Shown here: positions 41,480 through 64,000 of the stretch, one piece after another
Layout of the letters: each line of letters begins with the position of its first letter
Numbering within the stretch: position 1 is the first letter of the stretch
Origin: an uncultured Clostridia bacterium
GTDB lineage: Bacteria > Bacillota > Clostridia > TANB77 > CAG-508
Direction: 5' to 3'
DNA: 64,000 bases
NCBI GenBank assembly: GCA_934167755.1
Contig: CAKPLT010000001.1
Location: forward strand, 161,753-225,752
Made by a program: the position numbers and the translations under genes
Notes under the pieces: generated by a model
What the model was told of the DNA's origin: nothing
Databases searched by the model: none
What the model saw: only the letters and a program-made list of their open reading frames with translations

Positions 41480-41495
41480 TTTAAATGTAGTTTTA

Positions 41496-42119: not shown

Positions 42120-42196
42120 TTTTTCACCTTCATTCTGTCCTTTAGTTTAACCTTAAAGGTCAAGAAAAGTATATCATAAAAAATTTAAAATTGGAA

Positions 42197-43192: not shown

Positions 43193-43248
43193 TATACAAC
43201 GAGTGTCTTTTTAGTATATTAAGGTTAAAAAAAGGACTAATTCAAAAA

Positions 43249-44275: not shown

Positions 44276-45460
44276 CTACTTCATAGAAACATTACTAACC
44301 AACATATTCTCCAACAACTCTGCACTAGCCCTATCAGTAGACTCCAAATCATGAACATAAAACTTCAAAGTAGTATCAGTACTAGCATGACCTAATTTAT
44401 GAGAAACAGTCTTAACATCAACATTACCAGAAATAAGCAAAGTAGCAAAAGTATGTCTCAAATCATGAAAACGAATATGAGGAAAACCATTCCTAGTTAA
44501 GAAAGAACTAAACCATTTAGGACCAGTTGCAGGATTCATAATTCTACCATCAGCAGTAGTAAAAACATTTTTAGCACTTTTCCAAGATTTACCCAGAGCA
44601 AGTCTCATCTTACTTTGCTCACATCTCCATTGTTTAAGCAAATCAAAGCAAATACTAGGTACTGCTATTGTACGAGTACTTAAATCCGTTTTAGGACTCT
44701 TCTCAGAAGTAGGTTGACCACTTAAATAATAGGCACTTCTTTTAATACTTATTTTATGATTTTTAAAATCAATATCATCCCAATGCAAACCAACTAATTC
44801 ACCACGTCTAAAACCAGTTAATATAGCAAGAATAACAAAACATTTATATTTTATAGGAGCCTTTTTAAGTAGGACATTTATTAATCTTTTAGATGTTTCT
44901 TCATCATAACATGTCATTTTAGTACGTTTAAATTTAGGTTGAACAACTTTAGTACATGGATTATATGAAACCATGTCCCACCTGAGAGCATTACTGAAAA
45001 TGCTAGATAATATTTCATGAGCGCGATGTACACTAGCTGGAGATAAAGTTTTATAATTACCATTTTTGTCTTTTCTATTAGTTGGTTTAGTTAGCAAAAA
45101 ATCATACAGATTATCCAAATCCAAAAGTTTTATTTTATCAAGTCGCTTATTACCTAAATATGGCAAAATATGTTTATTTAATTTTTCGTTATAACTTTGG
45201 TAAGTTGTAGGCGAAAGATTAGGTTTTACATATGTTTCTAACCATTGCTTACTAAAATCATTTAATGTCACTTTTTTCGCAGAATATGTGCAACCGCCTT
45301 CAATTGAAGTGATAAATTTTGCAAGTTCTTTTTCGGCTTCTCTTTTAGATGAACAAGTAACAGTTTTATTAAAATATTTTCTTTTACCATTTGAATCGAA
45401 ACCATTACTAACACGAAGTCTATATTTTTCATTTCCCATATATAGAATGTTTCCTGCCAA
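44276..45460 (-). CDS. int: Tyrosine integrase (element 1)
   Basis: N-terminal MAGNILYMGNEKYRLRV...; C-terminal RFHDLRHTFATLLISGN...LGHASTDTTLKFYVH. Confidence 0.9.
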   Translation of the reverse strand: MAGNILYMGNEKYRLRVSNGFDSNGKRKYFNKTVTCSSKREAEKELAKFITSIEGGCTYSAKKVTLNDFSKQWLETYVKPNLSPTTYQSYNEKLNKHILPYLGNKRLDKIKLLDLDNLYDFLLTKPTNRKDKNGNYKTLSPASVHRAHEILSSIFSNALRWDMVSYNPCTKVVQPKFKRTKMTCYDEETSKRLINVLLKKAPIKYKCFVILAILTGFRRGELVGLHWDDIDFKNHKISIKRSAYYLSGQPTSEKSPKTDLSTRTIAVPSICFDLLKQWRCEQSKMRLALGKSWKSAKNVFTTADGRIMNPATGPKWFSSFLTRNGFPHIRFHDLRHTFATLLISGNVDVKTVSHKLGHASTDTTLKFYVHDLESTDRASAELLENMLVSNVSMK

Positions 45461-45472
45461 ATATATTACCTC

Positions 45473-46189
45473 CTACTTATTAATCCAATCTTGATTGTCT
45501 TTTAGCCATTTTGAAAGTTCATCAAATTTGATTTTATTATCTTTACAAAGTTTATACATTTTCTTAGCTTCAGAAGCCCAATTAGAAAATAGTTTATCTA
45601 CATTAGCAATATTTTTATTTCTTTGTTTCTTGGCATTTTGAGTTTTATATGCATTTCTATATAACTTTGTTATTTCATCAGATTGTACAGAGAGTTCATA
45701 ACCGATATCTCTACAAGTCTTACCATTTCTAAAAACACGAGTGCAATATATTTCATTACTCTTAGTTGTAGGAACAAAATATTTGCCACAATTTTTACAT
45801 TTATTAAATTGAATATTTAAAGCAGCGGCCCTATATAAAATGAATAAAATAAAATCATGATAAGATTTAAAAGTATAAATTTCTAATGGCATTTGTAAAT
45901 CATTTTCTATTTTAATTCCACTAAAAATTCTACATTCGAATGATCCCATTTTTGACAATTCATTACCTAAAGCTTTATATAATGAATCTGCATGATTATT
46001 TAACAAAAATTCAATTAAATGTTTTTCAGTTGCATTAGTTTCTTCAAATAATTCAATTACAAAATTACCTAAATTAAATTCTTTAGTAACAGCCTTTCTT
46101 TCAATATCTATAAGATAACATGTATCATTATTTATATATAGATAAATTTGCTTAGAGTCTTGTTTCATAACTATCTCCTTTTTAGACAT
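45473..46189 (-). CDS. Zn-ribbon protein (CKNCGKYF...C...C), co-transcribed upstream of int; paralogue of 54946-55941
   Basis: Shares the C.NCGKYF.P...YC..VF...KTC...G.EL block with the protein next to the second integrase. Confidence 0.5.
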   Translation of the reverse strand: MSKKEIVMKQDSKQIYLYINNDTCYLIDIERKAVTKEFNLGNFVIELFEETNATEKHLIEFLLNNHADSLYKALGNELSKMGSFECRIFSGIKIENDLQMPLEIYTFKSYHDFILFILYRAAALNIQFNKCKNCGKYFVPTTKSNEIYCTRVFRNGKTCRDIGYELSVQSDEITKLYRNAYKTQNAKKQRNKNIANVDKLFSNWASEAKKMYKLCKDNKIKFDELSKWLKDNQDWINK

Positions 46190-46307
46190 TTTAAAATAAA
46201 TTTCAAAAATGTCTTAACTTAAATTTGAATCTATTGTAACATATAGACATATTAAAAGTCAAGAATAATCTGTCAATTGCTTCAAATAATTCCAAGGAGG
46301 TGAGATT

Positions 46308-46502
46308 ATGCAAGAAAAAACAGATATTCCAGAGTTATTAACTGTTAAAGAAATTCAAGAAAAAATGAGAATTTCAAAAGCAGGAGTATATAACTTAATA
46401 AATTCTGGACAAATTCCATTATTAAAAATAGGGAATAGAAAATTAATACCTAAAAAAGAATTTTTAATTTGGTTAAAGAAACAGGAGGTGAATACAAAAT
46501 AA
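46308..46502 (+). CDS. xis: Excisionase/HTH DNA-binding protein (Xis-like)
   Basis: LLTVKEIQEKMRISKAGVYNLINSGQIP HTH; divergent from the int module. Confidence 0.6.
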   Translation: MQEKTDIPELLTVKEIQEKMRISKAGVYNLINSGQIPLLKIGNRKLIPKKEFLIWLKKQEVNTK

Positions 46503-46503
46503 A

Positions 46504-46722
46504 ATGGATGAAGAAGAATTCTTAACAAAACAACAGGTCATAGAAAAATATAAACCAATGTTTACAGAGTGGTCTCTTTCAAAATTAATTAGAGAAAGAA
46601 AAATAAAATTTGTAAGAATTGGTAGAAGAATATTTTTCACTAAAAAATCAGTAGATGATTTTATAAAATCTCAAGAAGAAAATAGTATTTTAAATGAAAG
46701 AAGGAATTTTCACATTGTATAA
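46504..46722 (+). CDS. Second small HTH (AlpA/Xis-like) protein
   Basis: FLTKQQVIEKYK...WSLSKLIRERKIKFVRIGRRIFF. Confidence 0.5.
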   Translation: MDEEEFLTKQQVIEKYKPMFTEWSLSKLIRERKIKFVRIGRRIFFTKKSVDDFIKSQEENSILNERRNFHIV

Positions 46723-46863
46723 AATAAAAAATTGTCCTTTCAATTGGTACTTGAAAGAACAATATAATTGAATATAAAGGCTAACCTATATAAACAATCT
46801 CTAAATATATTATATACGATTAGCCTAAAATATTCAATGATTTAACGAAAAGAGGTAAGAAAA

Positions 46864-49077
46864 TTGAATATTTATGAGCAAATAAAAAATAGTGTAACAA
46901 ACAAAGAGGTAGCAATTCATTATTTAGGACAACCAGTTAGAAAATCTGCAAACTATTTATTATATTCCTCACCTTTTAGAAAAGATAAAAATCCATCTTT
47001 TGCAGTTAATGATAAAGGTTTTATAGACTTTGGAGATAAAGAACATTGTGGAGATATGATTCAATTTGTAAAACAATTAAAAGGGTGTCAATATCCACAT
47101 GAAGCAGCAAAAATAATAGTAGAAGACTTGGGACTAAATATAACAATTCCAGAGAATATAAAAAATGTAAAAGAGAAGAAAAGTAAGAAAAAGTTTAGTG
47201 AATTATGTTTTGAAAAAGGAAATAAATCTAATAATATAATTTGCATGTTTGACTCACAAAAATATAATTCAAAACCAGCAAAGGAGCAAATAGGATATAT
47301 AAAAAATAGAATTTCAAAACTAAGAATGCAGGAATATAGATTAGAAGAAATAGAAAATAATATAATAAATGGCATGACAATAATACCAAGTGGAATAAAA
47401 GGAAATGCACAAGAAAATTGGAAAAAACAACAAATATTTTTAGTTGATTTTGATAACACATATAAAGGGGAAAAGTTATATAGTGATAACCCAAAACACA
47501 TAACAATTGAAAAAATTTTGAATTATTGCAAAAGTATAAACTTTGAATCGACATTTATATACACAACTTTTAGCAATTCTGAAAAACAAACAAAATTTAG
47601 ATTAGCATATGTATTTGAAGAACCAATTACGGAATATTTACTAGCATCTCAGATACCACAAAAATTATTAGAAATTTTTGAAGACTATTATCCAGATACA
47701 TCAAAACAGAATTTATCAGATATGTTTTTTGGAGGGCAAGAAATTCTATACACTTCTGACAACTATTATAAAATTTCAAAAAAGGAATTAGAAATTGAAC
47801 AAATAGAATACCAAGACATAAGTGAACCAGAAAAGATGTCTCATAATGTTATTGCTAATCAACTATTAGAGGAAAATGAAATCCGAGTGTATGAAAATAC
47901 ACTATACATATATGAAAATGGAGTATATAAAAAGAATGAAAAGAGCATCCATAGAAAAATTATAGAAATATATCCTAAATCAACAATTAGAATGCAAAAA
48001 GAAGTTATATCATATTTATTAACAATTGCTCCAGAGGCAGAACTACAATATGACAATTTTATTAATTTTAAAAACGGATTATTTGATTTAAGAACAAATC
48101 AGATAATACAGCATTCACCCCAATATTTTACAGTGAATCAAATAAATATAAATTTAAATTTAAATATTGATCCAATAAAAATTAGTGCAGTAGATAATTT
48201 TTTAGATAGAATAACTTGTGGCAATAACGAAAGAAAGAATGCAATACTGGAGATGATAGGATATTCTATGACTAGTAGTGTAAAGATGCAAAAAGCATTT
48301 GTATTATATGGTAAAACCGCAGGAAATGGAAAGTCTACTCTCTTAGAAATTATTGAAAGATTAATTGGAAGAGAAAATATAAGTCATGTAACATTGCAAG
48401 ATTTTGTTAGTAATAGATTTAGTGTTTCTGAAATAAAGGGAAAATTGGTTAATATAGTATCTGAAATGACAAAAGAATTTTTAAAAGATAGTAGTGTTTT
48501 CAAGCAAATTGTTACTGGAGATATTATAACTGTTGAAGAAAAGTTTAAAGATAGATATACAATAAAGCCATATGCTAAATACATTTTTACAGCAAATGAA
48601 CTGCCAAAAGTCGCAGATACTAGTAATGGATATTTCAGAAGACTTTTTATAATTCCATTTGAGGCTGTATTTACAGAAACAGAAAAAAGTAATTTCAACT
48701 TTAATGAATTGGTAACGCAACAAGCATTAGAATATTTGGCAGCAATATCATTAAAAGAATATATAAAAGCAGTAAGAAAAAATAAATTCTCTAATGTAGA
48801 GGAAAGTCAAAACATTATAGAATCATATAAAATGGATAGTAATACAGTAATAGCGTATTTATATGATAAAGATAGAATGAGAAGTTTATTAAGAAGCGGA
48901 AGAGTTAAAAAAAGAAATGAAGTATTTGCAGATTATATCAATTATTGCAAAGACTCTGGTTATATACACAAAGGCAGAAATAAGTTTTATGAAGAAGTTG
49001 AATCAACAGGGGTAGTACAAAAAGGTGTATATAATGGATATGATACATATATTTTTGATAAATCACTAATAAAATAG
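46864..49077 (+). CDS. Phage/plasmid primase-helicase (N-terminal CHC2 zinc finger primase + P4/D5-type SF3 NTPase), TTG start
   Basis: CHC2 region ...SPFRKDKNPSFAV...HCGD...; Walker A VLYGKTAGNGKST; Walker B/arginine-finger region. Confidence 0.78.
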   Translation: MNIYEQIKNSVTNKEVAIHYLGQPVRKSANYLLYSSPFRKDKNPSFAVNDKGFIDFGDKEHCGDMIQFVKQLKGCQYPHEAAKIIVEDLGLNITIPENIKNVKEKKSKKKFSELCFEKGNKSNNIICMFDSQKYNSKPAKEQIGYIKNRISKLRMQEYRLEEIENNIINGMTIIPSGIKGNAQENWKKQQIFLVDFDNTYKGEKLYSDNPKHITIEKILNYCKSINFESTFIYTTFSNSEKQTKFRLAYVFEEPITEYLLASQIPQKLLEIFEDYYPDTSKQNLSDMFFGGQEILYTSDNYYKISKKELEIEQIEYQDISEPEKMSHNVIANQLLEENEIRVYENTLYIYENGVYKKNEKSIHRKIIEIYPKSTIRMQKEVISYLLTIAPEAELQYDNFINFKNGLFDLRTNQIIQHSPQYFTVNQININLNLNIDPIKISAVDNFLDRITCGNNERKNAILEMIGYSMTSSVKMQKAFVLYGKTAGNGKSTLLEIIERLIGRENISHVTLQDFVSNRFSVSEIKGKLVNIVSEMTKEFLKDSSVFKQIVTGDIITVEEKFKDRYTIKPYAKYIFTANELPKVADTSNGYFRRLFIIPFEAVFTETEKSNFNFNELVTQQALEYLAAISLKEYIKAVRKNKFSNVEESQNIIESYKMDSNTVIAYLYDKDRMRSLLRSGRVKKRNEVFADYINYCKDSGYIHKGRNKFYEEVESTGVVQKGVYNGYDTYIFDKSLIK

Positions 49078-53717: not shown

Positions 53718-54893
53718 TTATGCGAGCACTTTCTCTAAAACATTACCAGCTTCCTTATTATTAGCCTCAACTGGATGCACATAGAAGTTTAAGGTAGTTG
53801 TTATTTGAGCATGCCCTAATCTTGATGCTATAACTGCTACATCCACATTTTGTGAAACGAGCAAAGTAGCATTTGTGTGTCGCAAACCATGGAAAGTAAT
53901 TTTTGGTAGATTGTTCTTTTCAATGAAAGAACGAAACCAATCTGTAACAGTATCAGGATGCATTGGCTTACCATTCCAAGTAACAAATAGTCTATTTGAG
54001 TTAACCCATAAGTTGCCACATTTTTCTTTTTCTTGATCATACCAAGCTTTATACTTATTAAGCGTATTTATTACAATATCAGGTATTCCGACTTTCCTAA
54101 TTGAACTACGAGTCTTTGGATCTTTTACGAAAATGCCTTTATCTGCAATATACTGACTAGACTTAGTAATATTAACAAATCCATTCTCAAAGTCGATATC
54201 TGACCATTCTAAGCCCAATACTTCGCCTCTACGCATACCAGTAAACAATGTTAATATAACAATAGTTTGAAATTTGATTTCTTCATTTTCTAATGCCTCT
54301 AGTAATTGTTTACATTGAACATCATCATAGTATTTAATTTGAGGTCTTTCATGCTTAGGTGGTTTTACTCTATCTGCTGGATTATAAGGTAGTATTTGCC
54401 AATATACAGCATTTTGTAACATAGCGTGTAGTAAGCGATGGTGCTCTAGTATTGTTTTAGAGGATAAGCCTTTCATTACAGTCTTTCCATTATGATTTTT
54501 ACATCTTTTAAGTTGATGATCTTTTGAAAGATAATCGTAAAAACTCATAATGTGAGTTGGTTTAATATTGCATAACTTATAATGACCGAAGTAGGGGATA
54601 ATTCGTGATTTTAGCATTTCTTTATATCTTTCATAAGTTTTAGGTGCTAATTCTTTTTCACCATAATTTTTAGCCCATAAATCTGTAAATTCTTTAAAGG
54701 TCATTGAAGAGTTCTGTAAAACAATACCATTTTCTATCTCATAAACAAAGTTCACAAGTTCTTTGTCTGCTTCACGTCTACTATTTGCTTTAATGCTTTT
54801 GGTATATCTAATTCTGTTACCATAGCTGTCATAACCATGAGATACAATTAATCTCCAAGAGCGTTTGCCTCTCTTTTCAAGATACCCTGCCAT
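53718..54893 (-). CDS. int: Tyrosine integrase (element 2), paralogue of 44276-45460
   Basis: MAGYLEKRGKRSWRLIV... with an AGGAGGTG RBS; C-terminal ...ITFHGLRHTNATLLVSQN...LGHAQITTTLNFYVH. The ORF-track N-terminal extension is rejected. Confidence 0.9.
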   Translation of the reverse strand: MAGYLEKRGKRSWRLIVSHGYDSYGNRIRYTKSIKANSRREADKELVNFVYEIENGIVLQNSSMTFKEFTDLWAKNYGEKELAPKTYERYKEMLKSRIIPYFGHYKLCNIKPTHIMSFYDYLSKDHQLKRCKNHNGKTVMKGLSSKTILEHHRLLHAMLQNAVYWQILPYNPADRVKPPKHERPQIKYYDDVQCKQLLEALENEEIKFQTIVILTLFTGMRRGEVLGLEWSDIDFENGFVNITKSSQYIADKGIFVKDPKTRSSIRKVGIPDIVINTLNKYKAWYDQEKEKCGNLWVNSNRLFVTWNGKPMHPDTVTDWFRSFIEKNNLPKITFHGLRHTNATLLVSQNVDVAVIASRLGHAQITTTLNFYVHPVEANNKEAGNVLEKVLA

Positions 54894-54945
54894 TACTTTT
54901 TCACCTCCTTTCAGCATACCTATGGCAAGGATTTTATATATTAAA

Positions 54946-55941
54946 TTATTTTTTCCTAACTTTAGTACTATTAATCCAGTCTTGAAATTCTTTTGCTGTA
55001 ATTTCTCCATCAATAAATTTTTTCCTAATTGTAGGACCTTCTTTTTTGAAATATTCATACATTTCATGTTTTTCTCTTTCAGATGCTTGCTTTGAAAGAG
55101 TTTGATATCTACTTCTATAAGCTTTAAGAATAGGCTTCTGCGCTAAACTTTCTTTATAGGCTAGTTCTCTACCAAATTCTTTACATGTTTTATTATCTTT
55201 AAATACTTCATCGCAATATTTAGTATCATGCATAGTTTTTGGAATAAAGTATTTACCACAATTAGCACATTTTTTTATCTTAATATTACTATCTAAAGAC
55301 AATAACTGTTTATATGAGATAAATAACACATTAAGATAATCATCAGTTCTAAAAGAATATGGAATACTTTTAGGCAGATTAAGTTCTTTATGAAAATAGT
55401 AAAAGTCATCCATAGTAAAATCTAATGTTAAATCATTTATCCTATAACTTAAGTTTATTAAATCAAAATTAGCAGATTCATCTTCAAATAAATCAGGAAA
55501 TTCTGCTCTAAAATCAGCCTCGATTTTATCGAATTCTTTAGGGCTTATATTTTCTTTTTCACTTGTTATAAGATTAATAAATATATCTTGATAAAATTCA
55601 AAGTCATCTTCATATTCAGATTGTAAGGTAAAGAATAAGTCTGATAATGCCTGTTCTGTTATGTAAAAGTTATCATTTTTATAATATTTAGATATATTTA
55701 ATTTGGATTTTTTAGCCAATTTGAATAATAAATCCTCTAAACAGTAATTAGCTATAAAGTTAACCATATCTTCACCGTTTTCAATATCTATATTGAGAAA
55801 ATCTAAAAGAATGCTACCAATAGGTCTTATTTCACAACGATTTACAGATTTGAATATAAATCCTTTCTTTTTCTTAATAGAAAAGTGATTTAAACATTCT
55901 GTTTTATTATTAGTATCGAAAGCAATATTATATAGTGACAT
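54946..55941 (-). CDS. Zn-ribbon protein (CANCGKYF...C...C), paralogue of 45473-46189
   Basis: Shared motif block with the element 1 protein. Confidence 0.5.
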   Translation of the reverse strand: MSLYNIAFDTNNKTECLNHFSIKKKKGFIFKSVNRCEIRPIGSILLDFLNIDIENGEDMVNFIANYCLEDLLFKLAKKSKLNISKYYKNDNFYITEQALSDLFFTLQSEYEDDFEFYQDIFINLITSEKENISPKEFDKIEADFRAEFPDLFEDESANFDLINLSYRINDLTLDFTMDDFYYFHKELNLPKSIPYSFRTDDYLNVLFISYKQLLSLDSNIKIKKCANCGKYFIPKTMHDTKYCDEVFKDNKTCKEFGRELAYKESLAQKPILKAYRSRYQTLSKQASEREKHEMYEYFKKEGPTIRKKFIDGEITAKEFQDWINSTKVRKK

Positions 55942-56131
55942 CTTTACCTCCTAATATCTACAAATTAAAAATTTTTGAACTTTTTTCAATTGTAAGGTTA
56001 CATATATCAGAAAAATATTATATAAAAGAGCCATACAATCAAAAACAAAAATAATAATTGTATGACAAAATAATACCATAATAATTTATATATGTCAACT
56101 ACAATTATAAAAATATTAGGAGGTGAAAGAA

Positions 56132-56338
56132 ATGGCACTAGATAACATTAAAAGAACAACTCTAACTGCAAAAGAAGCAGCAGAATATTTAGGAATTTCA
56201 TATTGGTTAATTACGCAATTAGTTAAAAGAAAACAAATTCCTTGCTCTAGAGTTGGAAAAAGAGTTTTATTCAGAAAAGAAGCCTTAGATATTTATCTAA
56301 GCAAAAAAGAAAATGATTCTATTGAAGAATCTTGCTAG
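56132..56338 (+). CDS. xis: Excisionase-family HTH protein
   Basis: LTAKEAAEYLGISYWLITQLVKRKQIPCSRVGKRVLF. Confidence 0.6.
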   Translation: MALDNIKRTTLTAKEAAEYLGISYWLITQLVKRKQIPCSRVGKRVLFRKEALDIYLSKKENDSIEESC

Positions 56339-56352
56339 AAAGAAGGGAGGAT

Positions 56353-56823
56353 ATGGGACAAGTTGGATGGATAAAAGTAAATACAAGTATATTTTCAAAT
56401 AGAAAAATTAAAATCCTACTAAAAGAAAGGGAAGGGGACACCTATTTTAGAATATGGATTCAGATTTTAACTATTGCTGGAGAATGTAACAGAGATGGTG
56501 GACTATATATTAGCGATAATACACCATTTAAAATCAAAGATTTTACCAATATTATTGGAAAATCTTCGAAAACATTTACGAGAATTTTACAAAAATTTAT
56601 CGATTTAGGAGTGCTAATTTATAAAAATGATACATACTTCGTAAAGAATTGGAGCAAGTATCAAAGTGCTGAAAAGCTAAAGAAAATTGGAAAATCAAAT
56701 AAAGTAGTTGAAGAAAATTTAATTGAAAAAAGTTTGAATAAAGTTACAGAAGAAAAGACAAGAAAAGAAGAAAATAGAAAGGAGAGCAGAATAGATGAAT
56801 CAAATTTTGAAACCCTCGATTAA
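56353..56823 (+). CDS. Phage replisome organiser N-terminal domain protein (DnaD-like)
   Basis: MGQVGWIKVNTSIFSNRKIKILL...GDTYFRIWIQIL is typical of the phage_rep_org_N family. Confidence 0.55.
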   Translation: MGQVGWIKVNTSIFSNRKIKILLKEREGDTYFRIWIQILTIAGECNRDGGLYISDNTPFKIKDFTNIIGKSSKTFTRILQKFIDLGVLIYKNDTYFVKNWSKYQSAEKLKKIGKSNKVVEENLIEKSLNKVTEEKTRKEENRKESRIDESNFETLD

Positions 56824-57664
56824 CAAAAGGGATTCCATTGAATGTGAATATTGCAAAAATACATTATACAGAAGAACAATAGAATGGGAACTATATGGTA
56901 CTAAGAGAATAATAACTTTAGACTATGAAAGATGCAAATGTAAGGATGCCCAGAAATATTGGAATGAATATGATCTGAAAAAATTAAGAATAATTGAAGA
57001 AGAAAAAAAGCTAGAATTAATGCAAGGGTTTTCGAGAAAAGTTGAAAAAATTATAAAAAACAGTAAGATGAGTAAAAGAAACTTGAGCTATAAATTTGAC
57101 AATTTTGAAATTAATAATAGCAATAAGAAAGCATTTAATAATTTAAAAAATTATAGTGAAAAATTAGTAAATAACATAGAGAAAAAAGGACTCATTTTAG
57201 TTGGGAATAATGGAGTGGGTAAAACACATTTAGCATGTAGTATTGCAAATAAATTTATAGAAAATGGAATACCAGTAATATACGGAACATTAATTAATTT
57301 ATTAGCAGAATTACGAAATTCATATGAAATAGATAATAGTATTTCTGAGATGGAAATTATCAAATTATATGAAAATGTTGATCTATTAATTATAGATGAT
57401 TTAGGAAAAGAAAAGCCAAGTGAATGGGGATTAGAAAAATTATTTACTATCATAAATAGTAGATATGAAAATAGTTTACCAGTAATTATAACAACAAATT
57501 ATAATCAAAATTCTTTAGTAAAAAGGCTAAGCATTAATGAAGAAATTGAAACAGCAAAGTCAATTATTTCTCGACTATATGAGATGTGCTATTTAGTAAA
57601 AATTGATGATATAGATCATAGAATTCAAAAGAAAAAAGTTAGTAATTGCGGTAACAATAACTAA
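56795..57664 (+). CDS. DnaC/IstB-like AAA+ helicase-loader ATPase
   Basis: Walker A LVGNNGVGKTHLA; Walker B LLIIDDLGKE. Confidence 0.8.
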   Translation: MNQILKPSINKRDSIECEYCKNTLYRRTIEWELYGTKRIITLDYERCKCKDAQKYWNEYDLKKLRIIEEEKKLELMQGFSRKVEKIIKNSKMSKRNLSYKFDNFEINNSNKKAFNNLKNYSEKLVNNIEKKGLILVGNNGVGKTHLACSIANKFIENGIPVIYGTLINLLAELRNSYEIDNSISEMEIIKLYENVDLLIIDDLGKEKPSEWGLEKLFTIINSRYENSLPVIITTNYNQNSLVKRLSINEEIETAKSIISRLYEMCYLVKIDDIDHRIQKKKVSNCGNNN

Positions 57665-57799
57665 CTAAAAAGATAACTTTTTTAAATATTTTATATAAAA
57701 ATTATAATTGATTCTTTTAAAAAAGTAAATAGAAATTGATGAAAAAATTAGGACAAGAAAGTATAAATTTTTGTATATATTTGTCCTAATTTTTATAAT

Positions 57800-57925
57800 A
57801 AAAATATCCCTCGGAGAGCAAAAAGGGTATTAGGGCATTTTGCCCTAAACAGTGAAAAGGGTGTCAAGACACCAGGCTGGCGAATATTAGGTACTAAAAA
57901 ATACTACCTAAATTCGAGCAAAATA
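57800..57925 (+). other. Non-coding region with three consecutive stable hairpins (gggcattttgccc; ggtgtcaagacacc; ggtactaaaaaatactacc); candidate structured RNA or protein-binding site
   Basis: Inverted repeats seen in the sequence; no ORF. Confidence 0.3.
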
Positions 57926-58106
57926 AATTTTGCTAATTATTAATGCTTTGTAAACTAGCATTAATAAATTTTATATTAAGAAAGTGATTAAAAATGAAGA
58001 GAGATTCAGAACAAGTTTTAGATAGTATTTTCTTATCGTATAATAAAATTTTAAAGAGATTACATTTATTAGGAATAACAACTAAACATGGAAAAAAATA
58101 ACTCAT

Positions 58107-58337
58107 ATGGATTTAAGAAAAGCTGTAGATGTTATGGTAAAAAAACATCCAACATGTAGATGGAGAAGTGAGAAAATTAGAAGTAGAAAATATTTTATTT
58201 TAATAGAGGGTTATGAATGGTTAAAGCGAGTATATTTTCAAAAAGAAAAATCACTAATTGATGCTGATGTAGATTTTTTTAAAACAAGAATTAAATTATA
58301 TGAAGAATTTTTAAAATTAGAGCACAATGAAAATTGA
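58107..58337 (+). CDS. Hypothetical small protein
   Basis: ORF only. Confidence 0.35.
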   Translation: MDLRKAVDVMVKKHPTCRWRSEKIRSRKYFILIEGYEWLKRVYFQKEKSLIDADVDFFKTRIKLYEEFLKLEHNEN

Positions 58338-58349
58338 TGGAATGAAGAT

Positions 58350-58616
58350 ATGAATAAAAAACAATTATGTAAGTATTTTGATAGAAAAGATATTACTGTT
58401 AGAAAAGCAATTAAAAAAATGTGCGACTATGGATTGAGTGAATATAAATTTTTAATAAATAATAAAGTTGTAATTTCAAAAGAAGGAGTGAAATGGATTT
58501 GTAAAAATGTATTTAAACAAAAGTATTTAGAATTATTAGAAAAGCACAAAATGGAATTGACAGAGAAGTATATAAAAGCTGGTTACATATATGATAATTT
58601 CTTTTGGAGAAATTAG
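58350..58616 (+). CDS. Hypothetical small protein
   Basis: ORF only. Confidence 0.35.
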   Translation: MNKKQLCKYFDRKDITVRKAIKKMCDYGLSEYKFLINNKVVISKEGVKWICKNVFKQKYLELLEKHKMELTEKYIKAGYIYDNFFWRN

Positions 58617-58738: not shown

Positions 58739-59083
58739 ATGAGTAAATTTAAAACTTTTTTGAATAAAAAATTAAAAAGCAAAAAAATAAGCCAGAACAA
58801 ATTTGCAAGAATGATTGATGTTACACCGACCTATGTAAATAAAATGATAAATGGTACAAGCGGACCACCAGACAGGGGTTTACAAATAAAAATTGCAAAT
58901 AGTTTAGAAATAGAAGGGGAAGAAAGAAATAAGTTCTTCAATAACTTAGCAAAAGAAAAAGACGATATTCCTTCCGATATATATGAAGGTATTTTTTGCA
59001 ATAAAAATAGCTGGGACAAAATAAGAGAACTATTAAAAAAAGAAAAAATTATAAAAATAAATTTATCTGGCAGAAAAGGATAG
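58739..59083 (+). CDS. XRE-family HTH transcriptional regulator, directly upstream of hsdM2
   Basis: ISQNKFARMIDVTPTYVNKMINGT Cro/C1-type HTH. Confidence 0.7.
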   Translation: MSKFKTFLNKKLKSKKISQNKFARMIDVTPTYVNKMINGTSGPPDRGLQIKIANSLEIEGEERNKFFNNLAKEKDDIPSDIYEGIFCNKNSWDKIRELLKKEKIIKINLSGRKG

Positions 59084-59098
59084 ATATAGGGGGATAAG

Positions 59099-60673
59099 AT
59101 GATGGATAATAAAAAAGAAAAAGAAAGAGATGAACTTCATAAAACAATATGGAAAATGGCGGATGAATTAAGAGGCGCTGTTGATGGATGGGATTTTAAA
59201 CAATATGTATTAGGACTATTATTTTATAGATTTATATCAAAAAATATAGAAAACTATGTTAATACTAATCAGAGAAAATTAGGAAAAAAAGACTTCGAGT
59301 ACAAAAATCTTTCTAATGAGGACGCAGAATATGGTAGGGAAGATATTTTAAATGATAAGGGATTCTTTATTTTGCCAAGTGAGTTATTTTGTAATGTTAG
59401 AAAAAAGGCAAAAGTAAATCCTGATTTAAATATAACAATACATAAAGTTTTTGAAAATATAGAAGCATCTGCTAAAGGGACAGCATCAGAAAAAGCAGTT
59501 AAAGGTTTATTTGATGATTTTGATGTTAAAGGAAATAAATTAGGAAATACAGTAGATGAAAAAAATGAGAAATTAATTAAAATGCTAGATGCAATTGGAG
59601 ATTTGAAATTAGGTAATTACTCAGATAATACAATTGATGCTTTTGGAGATGCATATGAATATTTAATGACAATGTATGCATCCAATGCTGGTAAGTCTGG
59701 AGGAGAATTTTTTACACCACAAGAAGTTGGTGAATTGCTTGCTAAAATTGTAATAATGGATAAAAAAGAAGTAAATAAAGTATATGATCCATGCTGTGGA
59801 TCTGGAGGATTATTGTTAAAGTTCGCAAAAATACTTGGAAAAGAAAACATAAAAAATGGTTTTTATGGGCAAGAAATTAATTTAACGACATATAACCTAG
59901 CTAGAATAAATATGTTTTTACATGACATTAATTATAATAATTTTGACATATCTAGAGGAGACACTTTAACAAATCCTATGAATTGGGATGATGAGCCTTT
60001 TGATGCAATAGTATCTAATCCACCATATTCTATTCATTGGGCGGGAAAATCAGACCCGTTATTAATAAATGATGAAAGATTTGCACCAGCAGGAATACTT
60101 GCACCAGAATCAAAAGCAGATCTTGCATTTACGATGCATATGTTATCATGGTTAAGTCAAAAAGGAACAGCTGCAATAGTTCAATTTCCAGGAGTATTAT
60201 ATCGTGGTGGAGCAGAACAAAAAATTAGAAAATATATGGTAGATAACAATTTTGTAGATACTGTTATTCAATTGCCAAGTGATTTATTTTTTGGTACATC
60301 TATAGCAACATGTATATTAGTATTAAAAAAATCAAAAAAAACTAACGATATACTAATTATTGATGCTTCAAATAAATTTATAAGAAACTCCAATAAAAAT
60401 AAGTTATCTCCAGATAATATAAATTGGATTATAGACAAAATCAAAAATAGAAAAGGCAAAGAAAATGAACCAGTAGTAGTAGTAGCTAATGAAGAAGTAG
60501 AAAAAAATAATTATAATATATCAGTCAATACATACATAAAGAATAATTTGGAAGAAGAAAAAATTGATATAAAAGAAGTAAATAAAAATATAAAAGAAAT
60601 AGTGAAAAGAGAAAACAAAATTAGAATTGAACTTGATAAAATAATCCAAGAATTGGAGGAAGATAATGAGTAA
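59099..60673 (+). CDS. hsdM: Type I R-M methyltransferase M subunit (system 2)
   Basis: FGDAYEYLMTMYA...GEFFTP; YDPCCGSGGLLL; NPPYS. Confidence 0.95.
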   Translation: MMDNKKEKERDELHKTIWKMADELRGAVDGWDFKQYVLGLLFYRFISKNIENYVNTNQRKLGKKDFEYKNLSNEDAEYGREDILNDKGFFILPSELFCNVRKKAKVNPDLNITIHKVFENIEASAKGTASEKAVKGLFDDFDVKGNKLGNTVDEKNEKLIKMLDAIGDLKLGNYSDNTIDAFGDAYEYLMTMYASNAGKSGGEFFTPQEVGELLAKIVIMDKKEVNKVYDPCCGSGGLLLKFAKILGKENIKNGFYGQEINLTTYNLARINMFLHDINYNNFDISRGDTLTNPMNWDDEPFDAIVSNPPYSIHWAGKSDPLLINDERFAPAGILAPESKADLAFTMHMLSWLSQKGTAAIVQFPGVLYRGGAEQKIRKYMVDNNFVDTVIQLPSDLFFGTSIATCILVLKKSKKTNDILIIDASNKFIRNSNKNKLSPDNINWIIDKIKNRKGKENEPVVVVANEEVEKNNYNISVNTYIKNNLEEEKIDIKEVNKNIKEIVKRENKIRIELDKIIQELEEDNE

Positions 60674-61850
60674 AATTAATGATTTAATTAAAAAGATGTG
60701 TTCGGATGGCGTTGAATACCGTAAATTAAATGAATTGTTGGATTATATTCAACCTTCAAGGTATATTGTAAAAAACACAAATTATGATAAAAACTATACA
60801 ATACCAGTTCTAACTGCTGGACAGACTTTTATATTGGGATATACCAATGAAATCGATGGTATTTATAAGGCATCTAAAGAAAAACCAGTAATAATATTTG
60901 ATGACTTTACAACTTCAAATCATTGGGTAGAATTTGATTTTAAAGTAAAATCATCTGCAATGAAAATTCTTGTGCCTAAGACCAATGATTCATTTAAGTT
61001 TATTTATTATTGCATGCAAAATATTGAATATATCCCAAAAGAGCATTCAAGACAATGGATTCAGAAATATAGTGAATTTAAAATACCTTTGCCAAAAAAA
61101 GAAATACAAGAGAAAATAGTAGAGATACTTGATAAATTTGGTGAGTTGGAAGCAGAGTTGGAAGCAGAGTTGGAAGCAAGAAAAAAACAATACGAATTTT
61201 ATAGTAAAAAGATTTTTAAATTTAAAAAACCAGTTAAATATGTTCCAATTGGAGAAATATCTAGCACTATTACAGATTATGTTGCAAATGGTAGTTTTGC
61301 AGAAATAGCAAAAAATGTTCAATATAAAAGCGAACCAGATTATGCGGTATTACTTAGAACAGTAGATTATTCAAATGGATTTAATCCTGATAAATTTGTT
61401 TATATTGATAAACATGCATATGGTTTTTTAAAAAAATCAAAGCTATTTGGTGGAGAGATTATAATTAATAATGTAGGAGCAGGTGTTGGAACCACATTTC
61501 TTTGTCCAAAATTAGATATAAATATGAGCTTGGCTCCAAATTCGATTATGATAAAAACACCGAACAATAAGTTTTATTATTATTGGTTAAAAAGCATATA
61601 TGGACAAGAAGCTATAAAAAGTATTGTATCTAAAAGTGCTATGCCCAAATTTAATAAAACTGAATTTAGAAAAATAATGGTTCCAGTTTTACCGGAGCAA
61701 CAACAAAATGAAATTGTAAATATATTAGAAAAAATTGATAATCTCATAAATGACATATCAGAAGGATTGCCTGCCGAAATTAAACTCAGAAGGAAACAAT
61801 ATGAATATTATCGAAATAAATTATTAAACTTTAAAGAGGTGATTGCTTAA
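60666..61850 (+). CDS. hsdS: Type I R-M specificity subunit (two TRDs) with LEAE x3 in the central conserved region
   Basis: Two TRDs separated by ...GELEAELEAELEARKKQYEFYSKK; C-terminus ...RRKQYEYYRNKLLNFKE. Confidence 0.9.
   Translation: MSKINDLIKKMCSDGVEYRKLNELLDYIQPSRYIVKNTNYDKNYTIPVLTAGQTFILGYTNEIDGIYKASKEKPVIIFDDFTTSNHWVEFDFKVKSSAMKILVPKTNDSFKFIYYCMQNIEYIPKEHSRQWIQKYSEFKIPLPKKEIQEKIVEILDKFGELEAELEAELEARKKQYEFYSKKIFKFKKPVKYVPIGEISSTITDYVANGSFAEIAKNVQYKSEPDYAVLLRTVDYSNGFNPDKFVYIDKHAYGFLKKSKLFGGEIIINNVGAGVGTTFLCPKLDINMSLAPNSIMIKTPNNKFYYYWLKSIYGQEAIKSIVSKSAMPKFNKTEFRKIMVPVLPEQQQNEIVNILEKIDNLINDISEGLPAEIKLRRKQYEYYRNKLLNFKEVIA
61143..61178 (+). repeat. Perfect 12-bp tandem repeat gagttggaagca x3 inside hsdS (central spacer-length region)
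   Basis: Seen in the sequence; encodes (LEAE)3. Confidence 0.9.
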
Positions 61851-62947
61851 TGGATGAATATAATTCAATTGAAGCAGTTTCTGACAAAATAAAAAGCAAT
61901 TTAAATTCAAACAATCAAAATAAGAATGTTTCTATTTTGTATGCTTTTAATGCAACTGGAAAAACAAGATTATCTACAACATTAACTGACGAGATGGATG
62001 ATGGAAAAACATTATGTTATAATGCTTTCGTAGAAGATCTTTTTACATGGGATAATGATAATTATATTTTCAAAATTAATCCATCCTGTTGGTTGGTAGA
62101 ATTTATTAAAGAACAGGGTCTTGAAAATCAAATTATAGAAAATTTTACGAGTATTATTAATTCAAAGGTTGAACCAAGTTTTGAATTAGATAGAGGTGAA
62201 ATTATTTTTAGCATTGCTTCAGGTGATAGTGACTATGATAAAGGAATAAAAATATCTAAAGGAGAAGAAAGCGTATTTATATGGTCAATTTTCTACACAA
62301 TTTTAGAGACAGCAATAGATACATTAAATATGGAAAAAGATGACAGATTTACTGAATTTTTTGATAGTTTAGAGTATGTTATTATAGATGATCCAGTCTC
62401 ATCGATAGATGATTCAAAGATTATTTCAATTGCAATGATGTTGATAAAAGTAATAGATAAATATAAAAACAATAGTAATCATAAATTGAAATTTTTAATA
62501 ACAACTCATCACGCATTATTTTATAATGTTATATATAATCAATATAGGAAAAATAAAGAATATAATTTTAAACCATTCATATTGAAAAAGAAGAATAAAA
62601 TATATGAACTAAAAAATCAGAAAATAGATAGTCCATTTGGATATCATCTAATGGTCAAAGAAGAAATAGAACGAGCCATACAAGAAGAAGATATTCAAAA
62701 ATATCATTTTAATTTATTTAGAAGCTTATTAGAAAAGACAGCAAATTTTTTAGGATATGGTAATTGGGTTGACTGTATTGAAAATGATAAAAAACAAGAA
62801 TTTATAAGAATCATTAATTTATATAGTCATAGTAGATTGTCAGATATTGAATATAGAGAATTAACATATGATGATAAAGAATTATTTATAGATACATATA
62901 ATAAATTTGTTAAGAATTTTAAATGGGGGAAAATAGATGGAGAATAA
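61850..62947 (+). CDS. ABC-ATPase-like protein embedded between hsdS and hsdR; PrrC-like anticodon nuclease candidate
   Basis: Walker A-like NATGKTRLS; Walker B/D-loop-like YVIIDDPVSSID; C-terminal R-x3-E...(32)...H (FRSLLEK...YSHS), the spacing of the PrrC ACNase triad. Start and stop overlap the neighbouring genes. Confidence 0.55.
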   Translation: MDEYNSIEAVSDKIKSNLNSNNQNKNVSILYAFNATGKTRLSTTLTDEMDDGKTLCYNAFVEDLFTWDNDNYIFKINPSCWLVEFIKEQGLENQIIENFTSIINSKVEPSFELDRGEIIFSIASGDSDYDKGIKISKGEESVFIWSIFYTILETAIDTLNMEKDDRFTEFFDSLEYVIIDDPVSSIDDSKIISIAMMLIKVIDKYKNNSNHKLKFLITTHHALFYNVIYNQYRKNKEYNFKPFILKKKNKIYELKNQKIDSPFGYHLMVKEEIERAIQEEDIQKYHFNLFRSLLEKTANFLGYGNWVDCIENDKKQEFIRIINLYSHSRLSDIEYRELTYDDKELFIDTYNKFVKNFKWGKIDGE

Positions 62948-64000
62948 AAGAAATATTATATCTGAGAGTGATAATTCAACAGTATTAACAGAATATAAGC
63001 CATTAGAAAGAAAAGAAACATCATATCAAAGTGAAGCAGAACTTGAGAAAAATTTTATTAAAATATTGCAAGAGCAATCTTATGAATATTTAAATATAAA
63101 TAATGAAAAAGATTTAATAAAAAATCTAAAAGAGAAATTAGAAAAACTAAATAAAATTAAATTTACAGATAAAGAGTGGGAAGATTTATTTAATAACATT
63201 ATTGCTAATCCCAATGATGGAATAATAGAGAAAACAAAAAAAATTCAAGAAGATTATAAGCAAATATTAACATTAGAAAATGGAGAATTAAGAAATATTT
63301 ATTTAATAGATAAAGATAATATTCATAATAATAGCGTTCAAGTAATTAATCAATATGAAGTAGAAACGGATAAAAGAAAAAATAGATATGACGTTACGAT
63401 TTTAGTGAATGGACTCCCTATGGTTCATGTAGAACTGAAAAGAAGAGGTGTTGAATTAAGACAAGCCTTTAATCAAATAGAGAGATATCAAAGAGATTCA
63501 TTTTGGTACAATTCTGGATTATATAATTATGTTCAAATATTTGTTATAAGTAATGGGACATTTACTAAGTATTATTCAAATACTACAAGATATAAACATC
63601 TTGATGGAAAAACTGTAAAAAAGTCTAATTCATTTGAATTTACATCATATTGGGCAGATCAAAATAATAATGGGATTTGTGATTTGGAAGATTTTGCAAG
63701 AACTTTCTTTAGCAAAAGAACATTACTAAATATAATAACTAAATATTGCATTCTTACTTCTGAAGAAGATTTATTAGTAATGAGACCATATCAAATTACA
63801 GCAACAGAAAAAATAATAAATAAAATAGAAATAGCAAATAATTACAATGAATATGGAACAATTGAAGGTGGTGGCTATATATGGCATACAACTGGATCAG
63901 GAAAAACATTGACTTCTTTTAAAACAGCTCAAATAGCAAGTAAGCTTGAATATATAGATAAGGTTATATTTGTAGTAGATAGAAAAGATTTGGATTATCA
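62937..64000 (+). CDS. hsdR: Type I restriction enzyme R subunit (system 2), N-terminal part; continues beyond the window
   Basis: RYDVTILVNGLPMVHVELK nuclease motif; MRPYQITATE...HTTGSGKTLTSF helicase motif I. Open to the window end. Confidence 0.88.
   Translation, partial: MENKRNIISESDNSTVLTEYKPLERKETSYQSEAELEKNFIKILQEQSYEYLNINNEKDLIKNLKEKLEKLNKIKFTDKEWEDLFNNIIANPNDGIIEKTKKIQEDYKQILTLENGELRNIYLIDKDNIHNNSVQVINQYEVETDKRKNRYDVTILVNGLPMVHVELKRRGVELRQAFNQIERYQRDSFWYNSGLYNYVQIFVISNGTFTKYYSNTTRYKHLDGKTVKKSNSFEFTSYWADQNNNGICDLEDFARTFFSKRTLLNIITKYCILTSEEDLLVMRPYQITATEKIINKIEIANNYNEYGTIEGGGYIWHTTGSGKTLTSFKTAQIASKLEYIDKVIFVVDRKDLDY

What the first reader, a model, noticed from the sequence alone, without database searches (positions are those of the whole stretch)
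61143..61178. 3 x 12-bp perfect tandem repeat (LEAE)3 in the central conserved region of hsdS, system 2
In Type I HsdS the number of 4-aa repeats in the central helix sets the spacer length of the bipartite target. The EcoR124I versus EcoR124II difference (2 versus 3 TAEL repeats, giving N6 versus N7) is the established precedent. Here gagttggaagca is repeated three times exactly, a substrate for slippage or unequal recombination that would change specificity.
Basis: partly seen in the sequence, partly recalled or inferred. Interest (0 to 1): 0.55.

Follow-up and report, generated by a model that had tools for sequence, protein, structure and literature searches.

The report
Variable 12-bp repeat in HsdS spacer helix
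A perfect three-copy 12-base repeat sits in the helix that spaces the two DNA-reading domains of a restriction-system specificity protein. Nearly identical copies of this system in other gut samples carry two, three or four units, so it is a natural new example of a known way of changing a restriction enzyme's target.

Summary
Window 61143-61178 is (GAGTTGGAAGCA)x3, perfect and in frame, encoding (ELEA)3 at residues 160-171 of a 394-aa HsdS (60666-61850). The gene lies in an hsdM-hsdS-prrC-hsdR operon of the type IC (EcoR124I/EcoprrI) family. The operon sits on an integrative element of an uncultured, 26% GC gut Clostridia bacterium.

The repeat aligns without gaps onto the TAEL repeat of EcoR124I HsdS. 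In an AlphaFold model it lies in the middle of the single long inter-TRD helix (residues 145-183).

Operons 99.9% identical or more from independent metagenomes carry 2, 3 or 4 units. In some pairs there is no other difference across 1.1-2.1 kb.

Across the family the segment is quantised at 9, 13 or 17 residues, and at 5 in one three-TRD protein. By length, the window's 3-unit form equals EcoR124I (N6) and the 4-unit form equals EcoR124II (N7).

The change of target spacer is inferred from precedent (EcoR124I/II, NgoAV), not shown here. Rapid within-clone switching is also not shown: the window's own lineage had 3 copies in all 13 sequences.

Verdict: real, correctly interpreted, and a new member of a well-known kind.

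The parts
61143..61178 (+). Perfect 3 x 12-bp tandem repeat GAGTTGGAAGCA, encoding (ELEA)3 at HsdS residues 160-171
   Evidence: TRF; sequence; codon register
60666..61850 (+). hsdS, 394 aa, the specificity subunit of a type IC system. Its start overlaps the hsdM stop by 8 nt, and its stop overlaps the prrC start.
   Evidence: ORF list; Pfam Methylase_S; PADLOC Specificity_I E=2.6e-97; EcoR124I HsdS 7bst_A E=3.8e-68
60666..61097 (+). TRD1 (about residues 1-144). It is about 55% identical to EcoR124I TRD1, and 74% in the core residues 40-105, so a GAA-like half-site is possible but is an inference.
   Evidence: Alignment, counted; nt 92-302 match E. coli plasmid hsdS genes at 75%
61098..61214 (+). 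Central conserved region: one continuous alpha-helix, residues 145-183. It is the first arm of the inter-TRD coiled coil and contains the repeat.
   Evidence: AlphaFold secondary structure; alignment to EcoR124I
61215..61694 (+). TRD2 (about residues 184-343). It shows no similarity to EcoR124I TRD2, so its half-site is unknown.
   Evidence: Pfam stretch 216-373; one search aligns only residues 329-390 in the C-terminal part
61695..61823 (+). C-terminal conserved region: helices 344-362 and 367-386, the second arm of the coiled coil. The equivalent segment here is 17 residues with no repeat, and it is unchanged between the 2- and 4-copy alleles.
   Evidence: protein sequences
59099..60673 (+). 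hsdM, 524 aa
   Evidence: Pfam N6_Mtase E=6.5e-109 and HsdM_N
61850..62947 (+). prrC-like anticodon nuclease gene, 365 aa, embedded between hsdS and hsdR
   Evidence: PADLOC PrrC E=2.7e-103; Pfam AAA_13
62938..64000 (+). hsdR, 5' part only; it runs off the window. In identical loci it is 1053 aa with an EcoR124_C domain.
   Evidence: Sequence; gene tables of L001-L012; window identical to L002 over 11 kb
58739..59083 (+). HTH_3 (Cro/C1-type) protein just upstream of hsdM; a possible controller, function not tested
   Evidence: Pfam

Best explanation
The repeat encodes three ELEA turns in the central helix of a type IC HsdS. That helix pairs antiparallel with the C-terminal helix and sets the distance and twist between the two target-recognition domains.

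Because the three units are identical at the DNA level, they can misalign, either by replication slippage or by unequal recombination. Misalignment adds or removes exactly 12 bp (4 residues, about one helical turn) without disturbing the frame. In nature this has happened repeatedly: 2-, 3- and 4-unit alleles circulate on otherwise almost identical operons.

[quoted passage not shown] The 3-unit window allele is length-equivalent to EcoR124I, so the predicted spacers are about N5, N6 and N7 for 2, 3 and 4 units. Each step would create a new restriction and methylation specificity with the same two half-sites.

Shown: the position, the structure context, the family and the natural copy-number polymorphism. 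Inferred: the spacer change, the mutational mechanism and the rate.
For: Repeat and frame.

Type IC family:
- Best PDB sequence match is EcoR124I HsdS, and it is also the best fold match.
- HsdR of identical loci carries EcoR124_C.
- Gene order is hsdM-hsdS-prrC-hsdR, with prrC identified by PADLOC at E=2.7e-103, as in EcoprrI.

Position: the repeat aligns without gaps to the TAEL region and lies inside helix 145-183.

Polymorphism:
- The 90% cluster holds members of 390, 394 and 398 aa. They read FGELEAELEARKK, the window's FGELEAELEAELEARKK, and FGELEAELKAELEAELEARKK.
- At the DNA level there are 2 units in L011, L016, L017 and L022; 3 units in the window, L001-L010, L023 and L026; and 4 units in L012-L015, L024 (four perfect units) and L018-L021.
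- L012-15 (4 units) against L016-17 (2 units): 0 mismatches in the other 1149 nt of hsdS.
- L023 (3) against L022 (2): 1 mismatch in 3.5 kb. L024 (4) against L016 (2): 0 in 2.1 kb. L023 (3) against L024 (4): 3 in 4.7 kb.
- All alleles are in frame, and the C-terminal helix is identical in the 2- and 4-unit alleles.

Recent homogenisation: more diverged relatives (P0001, P0002, P0005) keep three units, but those units differ at synonymous and fourth-codon positions. The perfect identity here is therefore recent duplication or homogenisation, not amino-acid constraint.

Family-wide quantisation: central segments of 9, 13 and 17 residues occur in 6, 58 and 19 proteins, and a 5-residue segment occurs in P0102.

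Precedents: EcoR124I/II, EcoDXXI hybrids and EcoprrI (PMC3874165); NgoAV with 0-3 LEAT repeats and motifs with N6, N7 and N8 spacers (PMC6789123); M. pneumoniae hsdS 12-bp repeats that vary between strains and between passages (PMC4537597).
Against: - No methylome or recognition sequence is available for any of these alleles, so the spacer change is an extrapolation.
- The window's own hsdS backbone had 3 copies in all 13 sequences examined (window, L001-L010, L026, L025's intact part), and the exact 394-aa protein was indexed in 33 blocks. The array is therefore not visibly unstable on short time-scales.
- Only three units of 12 bp is a weak slippage substrate.
- The operons are mosaic: hsdM of L012 differs at 49 of 1572 sites while the rest is nearly identical. 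Some copy-number states could therefore have spread by allelic recombination rather than arising in situ.
- Activity of the 2-unit form is assumed from its intact frame and recurrence in 4 samples, not shown.
Confidence: 0.85

Rival explanations
1. True phase variation. The array switches at high frequency and reversibly within a clonal population, giving a three-state (N5/N6/N7) methylome and defence switch comparable to a phasevarion.
For: Copy number differs between operons that are 99.9% identical or more. That implies a rate far above the per-site substitution rate. 12-bp hsdS repeats in M. pneumoniae change even between laboratory passages.
Against: No read-level data were available. No sample yielded two alleles; the sample accessions are all different. 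The window lineage was uniformly 3 copies in 13 sequences. Three units is a short array, whereas M. pneumoniae arrays reach 10-33 units. The one contig that ended at the repeat (L114) ended in Illumina adapter, not at a variant bubble.
Confidence: 0.2
2. A static structural motif. ELEA turns are just the usual sequence of this coiled coil. The DNA identity of the units is incidental, and copy number is fixed within the lineage.
For: Three units (a 13-residue segment) is the commonest state in the family, 58 of 83 proteins. The diverged relatives P0001, P0002 and P0005 all keep three units. The window lineage is invariant.
Against: 2-, 3- and 4-unit alleles occur on the same backbone with 0-3 other differences. 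Perfect identity at synonymous sites contrasts with the diverged units in relatives.
Confidence: 0.05
3. Assembly artefact. The copy-number differences among metagenomic contigs come from mis-assembly of a repeat.
For: All comparison sequences are short-read metagenome assemblies. One related contig carries adapter sequence.
Against: The arrays are 24-48 bp, shorter than a read and shorter than the final k-mers used (for example k141). Each state recurs in several independent samples and assemblers: 2 units in 4 samples, 4 units in 9 samples, 3 units in more than 12. Two of the 4-unit alleles carry their own point substitutions inside the array. All alleles stay in frame.
Confidence: 0.03
4. 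Copy-number states are old and are moved around by homologous recombination between hsdS alleles, using the conserved central region as the crossover point. They are not generated in situ by slippage.
For: There is clear mosaicism. hsdM of L012-14 differs at 49 of 1572 sites while hsdS-prrC-hsdR differ at 8 of 4920 or fewer. P0005 has a different TRD1 joined to the same central region and TRD2. The same GELEAELEA segment occurs in hsdS genes with other TRDs, P0083 and P0097.
Against: Unit sequences in the 2-, 3- and 4-copy alleles of backbone B are the same 12-mer, and the flanks on both sides are identical. A local gain or loss is therefore the simplest account. This rival changes the mutational route, not the functional outcome.
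Confidence: 0.25

Closest known systems
EcoR124I / EcoR124II (type IC; TAEL repeat in the central conserved region of HsdS)
   Same: Best sequence match (E=3.8e-68) and best structure match. The 12-bp, 4-residue repeat is at the same position in the first inter-TRD helix. HsdR carries the EcoR124_C domain. Natural alleles differ only in unit number. TRD1 is about 55% identical.
   Different: The unit is ELEA (GAGTTGGAAGCA), not TAEL. The window's three perfect units fill the same 13-residue segment that EcoR124I fills with two TAEL plus a degenerate unit. Three natural states (2, 3, 4) are seen rather than two. TRD2 is unrelated. The host is an uncultured gut Clostridia bacterium, and the system is on an integrative element rather than an enterobacterial plasmid. 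Specificities have not been measured.
EcoprrI (prrA-prrB-prrC-prrD locus; type IC R-M with embedded PrrC anticodon nuclease)
   Same: Same operon layout, hsdM-hsdS-prrC-hsdR, with a strong PrrC match (PADLOC E=2.7e-103). It is type IC, and its HsdS has the tetra-amino-acid repeat (three TAEL; CCA N7 RTGC).
   Different: Different TRDs and a different repeat unit. No evidence here on PrrC activity or its regulation. No copy-number polymorphism was found for EcoprrI in the review read here.
NgoAV of Neisseria gonorrhoeae (type IC; LEAT/EATL repeats)
   Same: Among strains, 0-3 tetra-amino-acid repeats occur in the central region of HsdS, and they are associated with motifs that differ in spacer length, N6, N7 and N8 (PMC6789123).
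   Different: NgoAV also uses a poly-G frameshift that truncates HsdS. No homopolymer switch is present here. The repeat unit and the host differ.
Mycoplasma pneumoniae hsdS genes (12-bp AELS/TELS tandem repeats)
   Same: A 12-bp in-frame repeat in the first dimerisation helix, with copy number varying between strains (PMC4537597).
   Different: The mycoplasma arrays are much longer (up to 33 units) and change between passages. That system lacks a functional hsdR. Here the array has 2-4 units, and an hsdR ORF is present: its 5' part in the window, and a full 1053-aa ORF in identical loci.

Membership tests
Type IC restriction-modification (EcoR124I family) | HsdS homologous to the EcoR124I/EcoDXXI/EcoprrI S subunits, including both conserved regions | tested here: met
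   phmmer against PDB: 7bst_A E=3.8e-68, matching residues 6-200 and 329-390. Foldseek top hit 7bst_A, TM 0.75-0.77.
Type IC restriction-modification (EcoR124I family) | HsdR of the EcoR124I type (C-terminal EcoR124_C domain) | tested here: met
   The 1053-aa HsdR in L001-L012 carries PF12008 EcoR124_C. L002 is 100% identical to the window over 11 kb. The window itself holds only the first 354 codons of hsdR.
Type IC restriction-modification (EcoR124I family) | Gene order hsdM-hsdS-hsdR. That this order is typical of type IC, unlike hsdR-hsdM-hsdS in IA/IB, rests on my own knowledge. | tested here: met
   ORFs 59099-60673, 60666-61850 and 62938 onwards, all on the + strand, with prrC inserted as in EcoprrI.
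Type IC restriction-modification (EcoR124I family) | Tetra-amino-acid tandem repeat in the central conserved region of HsdS | tested here: met
   (ELEA)3 aligned onto the TAEL region. 1-4 units occur across homologues.
Type IC restriction-modification (EcoR124I family) | Subunit complementation or antibody cross-reaction with family members (the classical definition) | not testable with these tools
   Needs experiments.
prr locus (R-M-linked PrrC anticodon nuclease) | A prrC homologue embedded between hsdS and hsdR of a type IC operon | tested here: met
   PADLOC PrrC PDLC02360, E=2.7e-103, residues 11-360 against profile positions 21-347 of 372. The ORF overlaps both neighbours.
prr locus (R-M-linked PrrC anticodon nuclease) | Latent tRNA-Lys anticodon nuclease activity, masked by the R-M complex | not testable with these tools
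   Needs biochemistry.
Repeat-driven specificity variation of HsdS (EcoR124I/II type) | Alleles that differ only in the number of 12-bp units | tested here: met
   2, 3 and 4 units occur with 0-3 other differences per 1.1-4.7 kb.
Repeat-driven specificity variation of HsdS (EcoR124I/II type) | Each unit changes the spacer of the recognition sequence by 1 bp | not testable with these tools
   No methylome data. Inferred from EcoR124I/II and NgoAV.
Phase-variable type I system (phasevarion sense, Atack et al. 2020) | A simple-sequence repeat whose length changes shift the frame and switch expression ON/OFF or full-length/truncated | tested here: not met
   The unit is 12 bp, divisible by three, and all alleles are in frame. 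That survey explicitly excluded such repeats (PMC7383803).
Phase-variable type I system (phasevarion sense, Atack et al. 2020) | High-frequency reversible switching within a clonal population | not testable with these tools
   No reads were available. No sample gave two alleles. The contig end in L114 is adapter sequence.

The most novel reading that the evidence does not exclude
The array is a genuine in-frame contingency locus. Within single populations of this uncultured gut Clostridia bacterium it toggles between 2, 3 and 4 units often enough to keep subpopulations with N5, N6 and N7 specificities. This would diversify both phage restriction and the methylome, on a mobile prr-type element in which the same R-M complex also gates a PrrC suicide nuclease. 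That would be a class of type I phase variation, in-frame and spacer-changing, that systematic surveys have deliberately left out.
Probability: 0.15. Interest if true: 0.55.

Novelty: new member of a known kind. Interest (0 to 1): 0.38.

Why it matters
It gives a clean natural replicate of the textbook EcoR124I/EcoR124II case, in a distant and uncultured gut anaerobe. Three length states of the HsdS spacer helix sit on otherwise near-identical mobile operons.

It offers a ready-made allelic series for testing how one extra helical turn in only one arm of the coiled coil is accommodated, a point the type I review (PMC3874165) calls unresolved.

It also shows that in-frame 12-bp repeats, which phase-variation surveys excluded, do vary in natural populations. 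Practically, methylation motifs used to bin or host-link these MAGs may differ by spacer length between otherwise identical strains.

It does not reveal a new mechanism.

Tried and rejected
- A pattern scan for the array with 1-6 units and exact flanks found nothing in genome contigs or viral contigs. The element is absent from species-representative genomes and from IMG/VR.
- The same scan of metagenome contigs gave 4 loci, which I used.
- P0127, a 160-aa fragment ending exactly at the repeat, looked like a possible assembly break caused by within-sample heterogeneity. Its contig (L114) ends in Illumina adapter AGATCGGAAGAGCGTCGTGTA, so I rejected it as evidence.
- L025 looked like a TRD2 swap. 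In fact identity stops at about nt 590, and the frame downstream is full of stops. It is a disrupted or chimeric contig, so I did not use it as a TRD-exchange example.
- System 1 in the window (hsdS pieces at 40934-42119 and 43249-43818) has no tetra-amino-acid repeat in its conserved regions. It is not a partner for repeat exchange.
- A plasmid search (blastn, 'distant' mode) found only TRD1-core similarity to enterobacterial and lactobacillus hsdS genes, with no full-length relative.
- The exact-sequence cluster look-up said the window protein is not in the collection, yet the contig index found it in 33 blocks. I treated this as a difference between the two indexes.
- The regex survey of the C-terminal segment gave spurious lengths of 6, 10 and 13 from alternative anchors. 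I rely only on the central-segment counts.

Full report
**Observation.** Window 61143-61178 reads GAGTTGGAAGCA three times without a mismatch (sequence). Tandem Repeats Finder gives period 12, 3.0 copies, 100% matches and score 72. No other array in the 64-kb window has three or more perfect copies of a unit of 8 bases or longer. With the window's base composition (26% G+C), 24 consecutive matches at lag 12 are expected about 6e-8 times per window at one lag. The array starts at the first base of codon 160 of the ORF 60666-61850, so it encodes ELEA-ELEA-ELEA within ...ILDKF-G-ELEAELEAELEA-RKKQYEFY....

**Gene and locus.**
- The ORF is a 394-aa HsdS: Pfam Methylase_S and PADLOC Specificity_I, E=2.6e-97.
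- It sits in a tightly packed + strand operon with overlapping stops and starts. The order is an HTH_3 protein (58739-59083), hsdM (59099-60673; N6_Mtase E=6.5e-109), hsdS, a 365-aa ORF (61850-62947) and hsdR, which starts at 62938 and runs off the window.
- The 365-aa ORF is a PrrC anticodon-nuclease homologue (PADLOC E=2.7e-103).
- In loci that are 100% identical to the window over 11 kb (L002), HsdR is 1053 aa and carries the EcoR124_C domain.
- The layout hsdM-hsdS-prrC-hsdR is that of the E. coli prr locus, whose R-M part (EcoprrI) is a conventional type IC enzyme (PMC3874165).
- Upstream lie an integrase, DUF6076, HTH_17, Phage_rep_org_N and IstB-like genes. The same module sits in different chromosomal neighbourhoods in different metagenomes, so it is an integrative mobile element.
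- A ClpB/ClpC-family AAA+ ATPase gene elsewhere in the window is 72-75% identical to MAGs labelled 'uncultured Clostridia bacterium' or 'uncultured Clostridium sp.' from gut samples. The host is therefore an uncultured low-GC gut Clostridia bacterium.

**Where the repeat lies in the protein.**
- The best match among solved structures is EcoR124I HsdS (7bst_A, E=3.8e-68).
- The alignment runs without gaps through the region: query ILDKFGELEAELEAELEARKKQYEFY against [26 protein letters not shown]. The ELEA units therefore occupy exactly the TAEL-repeat position.
- An AlphaFold model built on 55 homologues (mean pLDDT 90) has one continuous helix from residue 145 to 183, with the repeat (160-171) in its middle. 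It also has C-terminal helices 344-362 and 367-386.
- The model's best PDB fold match is again 7bst_A (TM 0.75-0.77).
- One refinement: the segment between ILDKF and RKKQY is 13 residues both here (G-ELEA-ELEA-ELEA) and in EcoR124I ([13 protein letters not shown]). By length, the window's three-unit allele therefore corresponds to EcoR124I (two perfect TAEL; GAA N6 RTCG), and a four-unit allele to EcoR124II, EcoDXXI and EcoprrI (N7).
- The equivalent segment of the C-terminal helix is 17 residues (ILEKI-DNLINDISEGLPAEIKL-RRKQY). Only the four-unit form makes the two arms equal in length.

**Copy number in relatives.**
- A protein search found close relatives. The 90%-identity cluster around the nearest one contains full-length members of 390, 394 and 398 aa.
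- Their sequences differ from the window protein essentially only in having ELEA-ELEA, or ELEA-ELKA-ELEA-ELEA (or ELET-KLEA-ELEA-ELEA), at this site.
- I fetched the encoding contigs and scanned JGI metagenomes with a gapped pattern.
- At the DNA level there are 3 units in the window, L001-L010, L023 and L026.
- There are 2 units in L011, L016, L017 and L022.
- There are 4 units in L012-L015 (unit 2 is GAGTTGAAAGCA), in L024 (four perfect units) and in L018-L021 (a more diverged backbone with two altered units).

**How close the alleles are outside the repeat.**
- The 4-unit L012-L015 and the 2-unit L016-L017 show no difference in the remaining 1149 nt of hsdS.
- Over hsdM-hsdS-prrC-hsdR, L023 (3 units) differs from L022 (2 units) at 1 site in 3.5 kb.
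- L024 (4) differs from L016 (2) at 0 sites in 2.1 kb.
- L023 (3) differs from L024 (4) at 3 sites in 4.7 kb.
- At least two copy-number changes have therefore occurred within a clade whose overall divergence is about 0.1%. As a rough order-of-magnitude inference, the array changes about a thousand times faster than a single nucleotide site, and diversifying selection could inflate that figure.
- The C-terminal helix is identical in the 2- and 4-unit alleles, so there is no compensating change in the partner helix.

**Why this is not an artefact.** The arrays (24-48 bp) are shorter than reads and shorter than assembly k-mers. Each state recurs in several unrelated samples and assemblers. Two 4-unit alleles carry private substitutions inside the array. 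All alleles are in frame.

**Limits on the claim of instability.**
- The window's own backbone had 3 units in all 13 sequences seen, and the exact protein is indexed in 33 blocks of the collection. Nothing points to very rapid switching.
- No sample yielded two alleles, and I had no read access.
- One truncated contig ended at the repeat (L114). It ended in Illumina adapter, not at a variant bubble.

**Origin of the perfect identity.** More distant relatives keep three units, but the units have diverged: GAG TTG GAA ACA / GAG TTG GAA GTA / GAA TTG GAA GCA in P0001, and others in P0002 and P0005. The protein tolerates T, V or A at the fourth position and synonymous changes elsewhere. The perfect DNA identity in the window lineage therefore reflects recent duplication or homogenisation, not amino-acid selection.

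**Family-wide pattern.** Among the 120 best homologues, the central segment is quantised at 9, 13 or 17 residues (6, 58 and 19 proteins). It is 5 residues in one three-TRD protein, P0102. The steps are always four residues. H. pylori HsdS pairs differ as TELNTELK versus TELNTELNTELK.

**Mechanism.** It is established for type IC enzymes that the number of four-residue units in the first inter-TRD helix sets the spacer.
- EcoR124I has 2 TAEL and recognises GAA N6 RTCG. EcoR124II has 3 TAEL and recognises GAA N7 RTCG. The two are interconverted by unequal crossing-over at the 12-bp repeat.
- EcoR124I/EcoDXXI hybrids changed spacer exactly as predicted when repeat number was changed (PMC3874165).
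- In N. gonorrhoeae NgoAV, 0-3 LEAT repeats occur among strains, together with motifs having N6, N7 and N8 spacers (PMC6789123).
- In M. pneumoniae, 12-bp AELS/TELS repeats in hsdS vary between strains and between passages (PMC4537597).

By analogy, the 2-, 3- and 4-unit alleles here should recognise the same two half-sites with spacers of about N5, N6 and N7. TRD1 is about 55% identical to EcoR124I TRD1, and 74% in its core, so the first half-site may be GAA-like. TRD2 is unrelated to EcoR124I. These points are inferences, because no methylome exists for these uncultured organisms.

Whether units are gained and lost by replication slippage or by unequal recombination cannot be told from sequence. 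The operons are clearly recombining: hsdM of L012-L014 differs at 49 of 1572 sites while the rest of the operon is nearly identical, and P0005 carries a different TRD1 on the same central region and TRD2.

**Comparison and novelty.**
- The locus meets every testable defining feature of a type IC system, of a prr-type locus, and of EcoR124I/II-type repeat variation.
- It does not fit the frameshift (ON/OFF or truncation) definition of phase-variable hsd genes used by Atack et al. That survey excluded repeats divisible by three and noted that analysing them would add weight to its analysis (PMC7383803).
- It is a new member of a known kind. The repeat unit (ELEA), the host, the mobile context and the three co-circulating natural length states are new. 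The principle is not.
- A specialist would find it expected but tidy. Its main value is as a natural allelic series for testing how a coiled coil copes with an extra turn in one arm only, which the review calls unresolved, and as a caution for methylation-motif-based strain and host linking in gut metagenomes.

Noticed in passing
window 61850-62947 (+): A 365-aa PrrC anticodon-nuclease homologue (PADLOC E=2.7e-103) is embedded between hsdS and hsdR and overlaps both neighbours. This is a prr-type suicide-defence locus in an uncultured gut Clostridia bacterium.
   Followed up: partly
window 36561-43818: A second type I system: hsdR with EcoR124_C (36561-39314), hsdM (39327-40901), two adjacent half-size hsdS ORFs on the minus strand (41496-42119, 40934-41479), a tyrosine recombinase (42197-43192, minus) and another half-size hsdS on the plus strand (43249-43818). 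It looks like an invertible hsdS cassette. No convincing inverted repeats of 20 nt or more were found (best 70-83% complementary), and no full-length expressed hsdS is obvious.
   Followed up: partly
window 53718-58616; L001, L002, L005, L011, L012: The R-M/prrC operon is carried by an integrative element with integrase, DUF6076, HTH_17, Phage_rep_org_N and IstB/DnaC-like genes. Downstream in relatives are Fic and helicase genes. The element sits next to different chromosomal genes in different metagenomes. The window is 100% identical to L002 (ERZ28614431) over 11 kb.
   Followed up: partly
L012-L014 versus L011, L023, L024 (hsdM): hsdM of L012 differs at 49 of 1572 sites from L011, L023 and L024, while hsdS-prrC-hsdR differ at 8 of 4920 or fewer. 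L013 shows the same upstream divergence (49-51 of 2041), and the shorter L014 shows 22-24 of 1193. This is a mosaic operon, implying recombination inside the R-M locus.
   Followed up: partly
L025 (OGWY01023446.1): Identity to the window's hsdS stops abruptly at about nt 590, just after the central helix. The downstream frame is full of stop codons. The contig is either a disrupted hsdS or chimeric.
   Followed up: no
L114 2605-2627 (ERZ27310171 k141_73703): This public contig ends in Illumina adapter sequence (AGATCGGAAGAGCGTCGTGTA), fused right at the start of the repeat. That created a false 160-aa truncated HsdS in the protein collection.
   Followed up: yes
window 44276-49077: A second phage-type integrase (44276-45460, minus) and a primase/D5_N/DUF5906 protein (46864-49077) lie between the two R-M systems. 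This suggests another integrated element.
   Followed up: no
window 30137-32392 (+): A 751-aa protein with two GHKL ATPase domains (HATPase_c_3 at the N-terminus, HATPase_c at the C-terminus). Function not examined.
   Followed up: no
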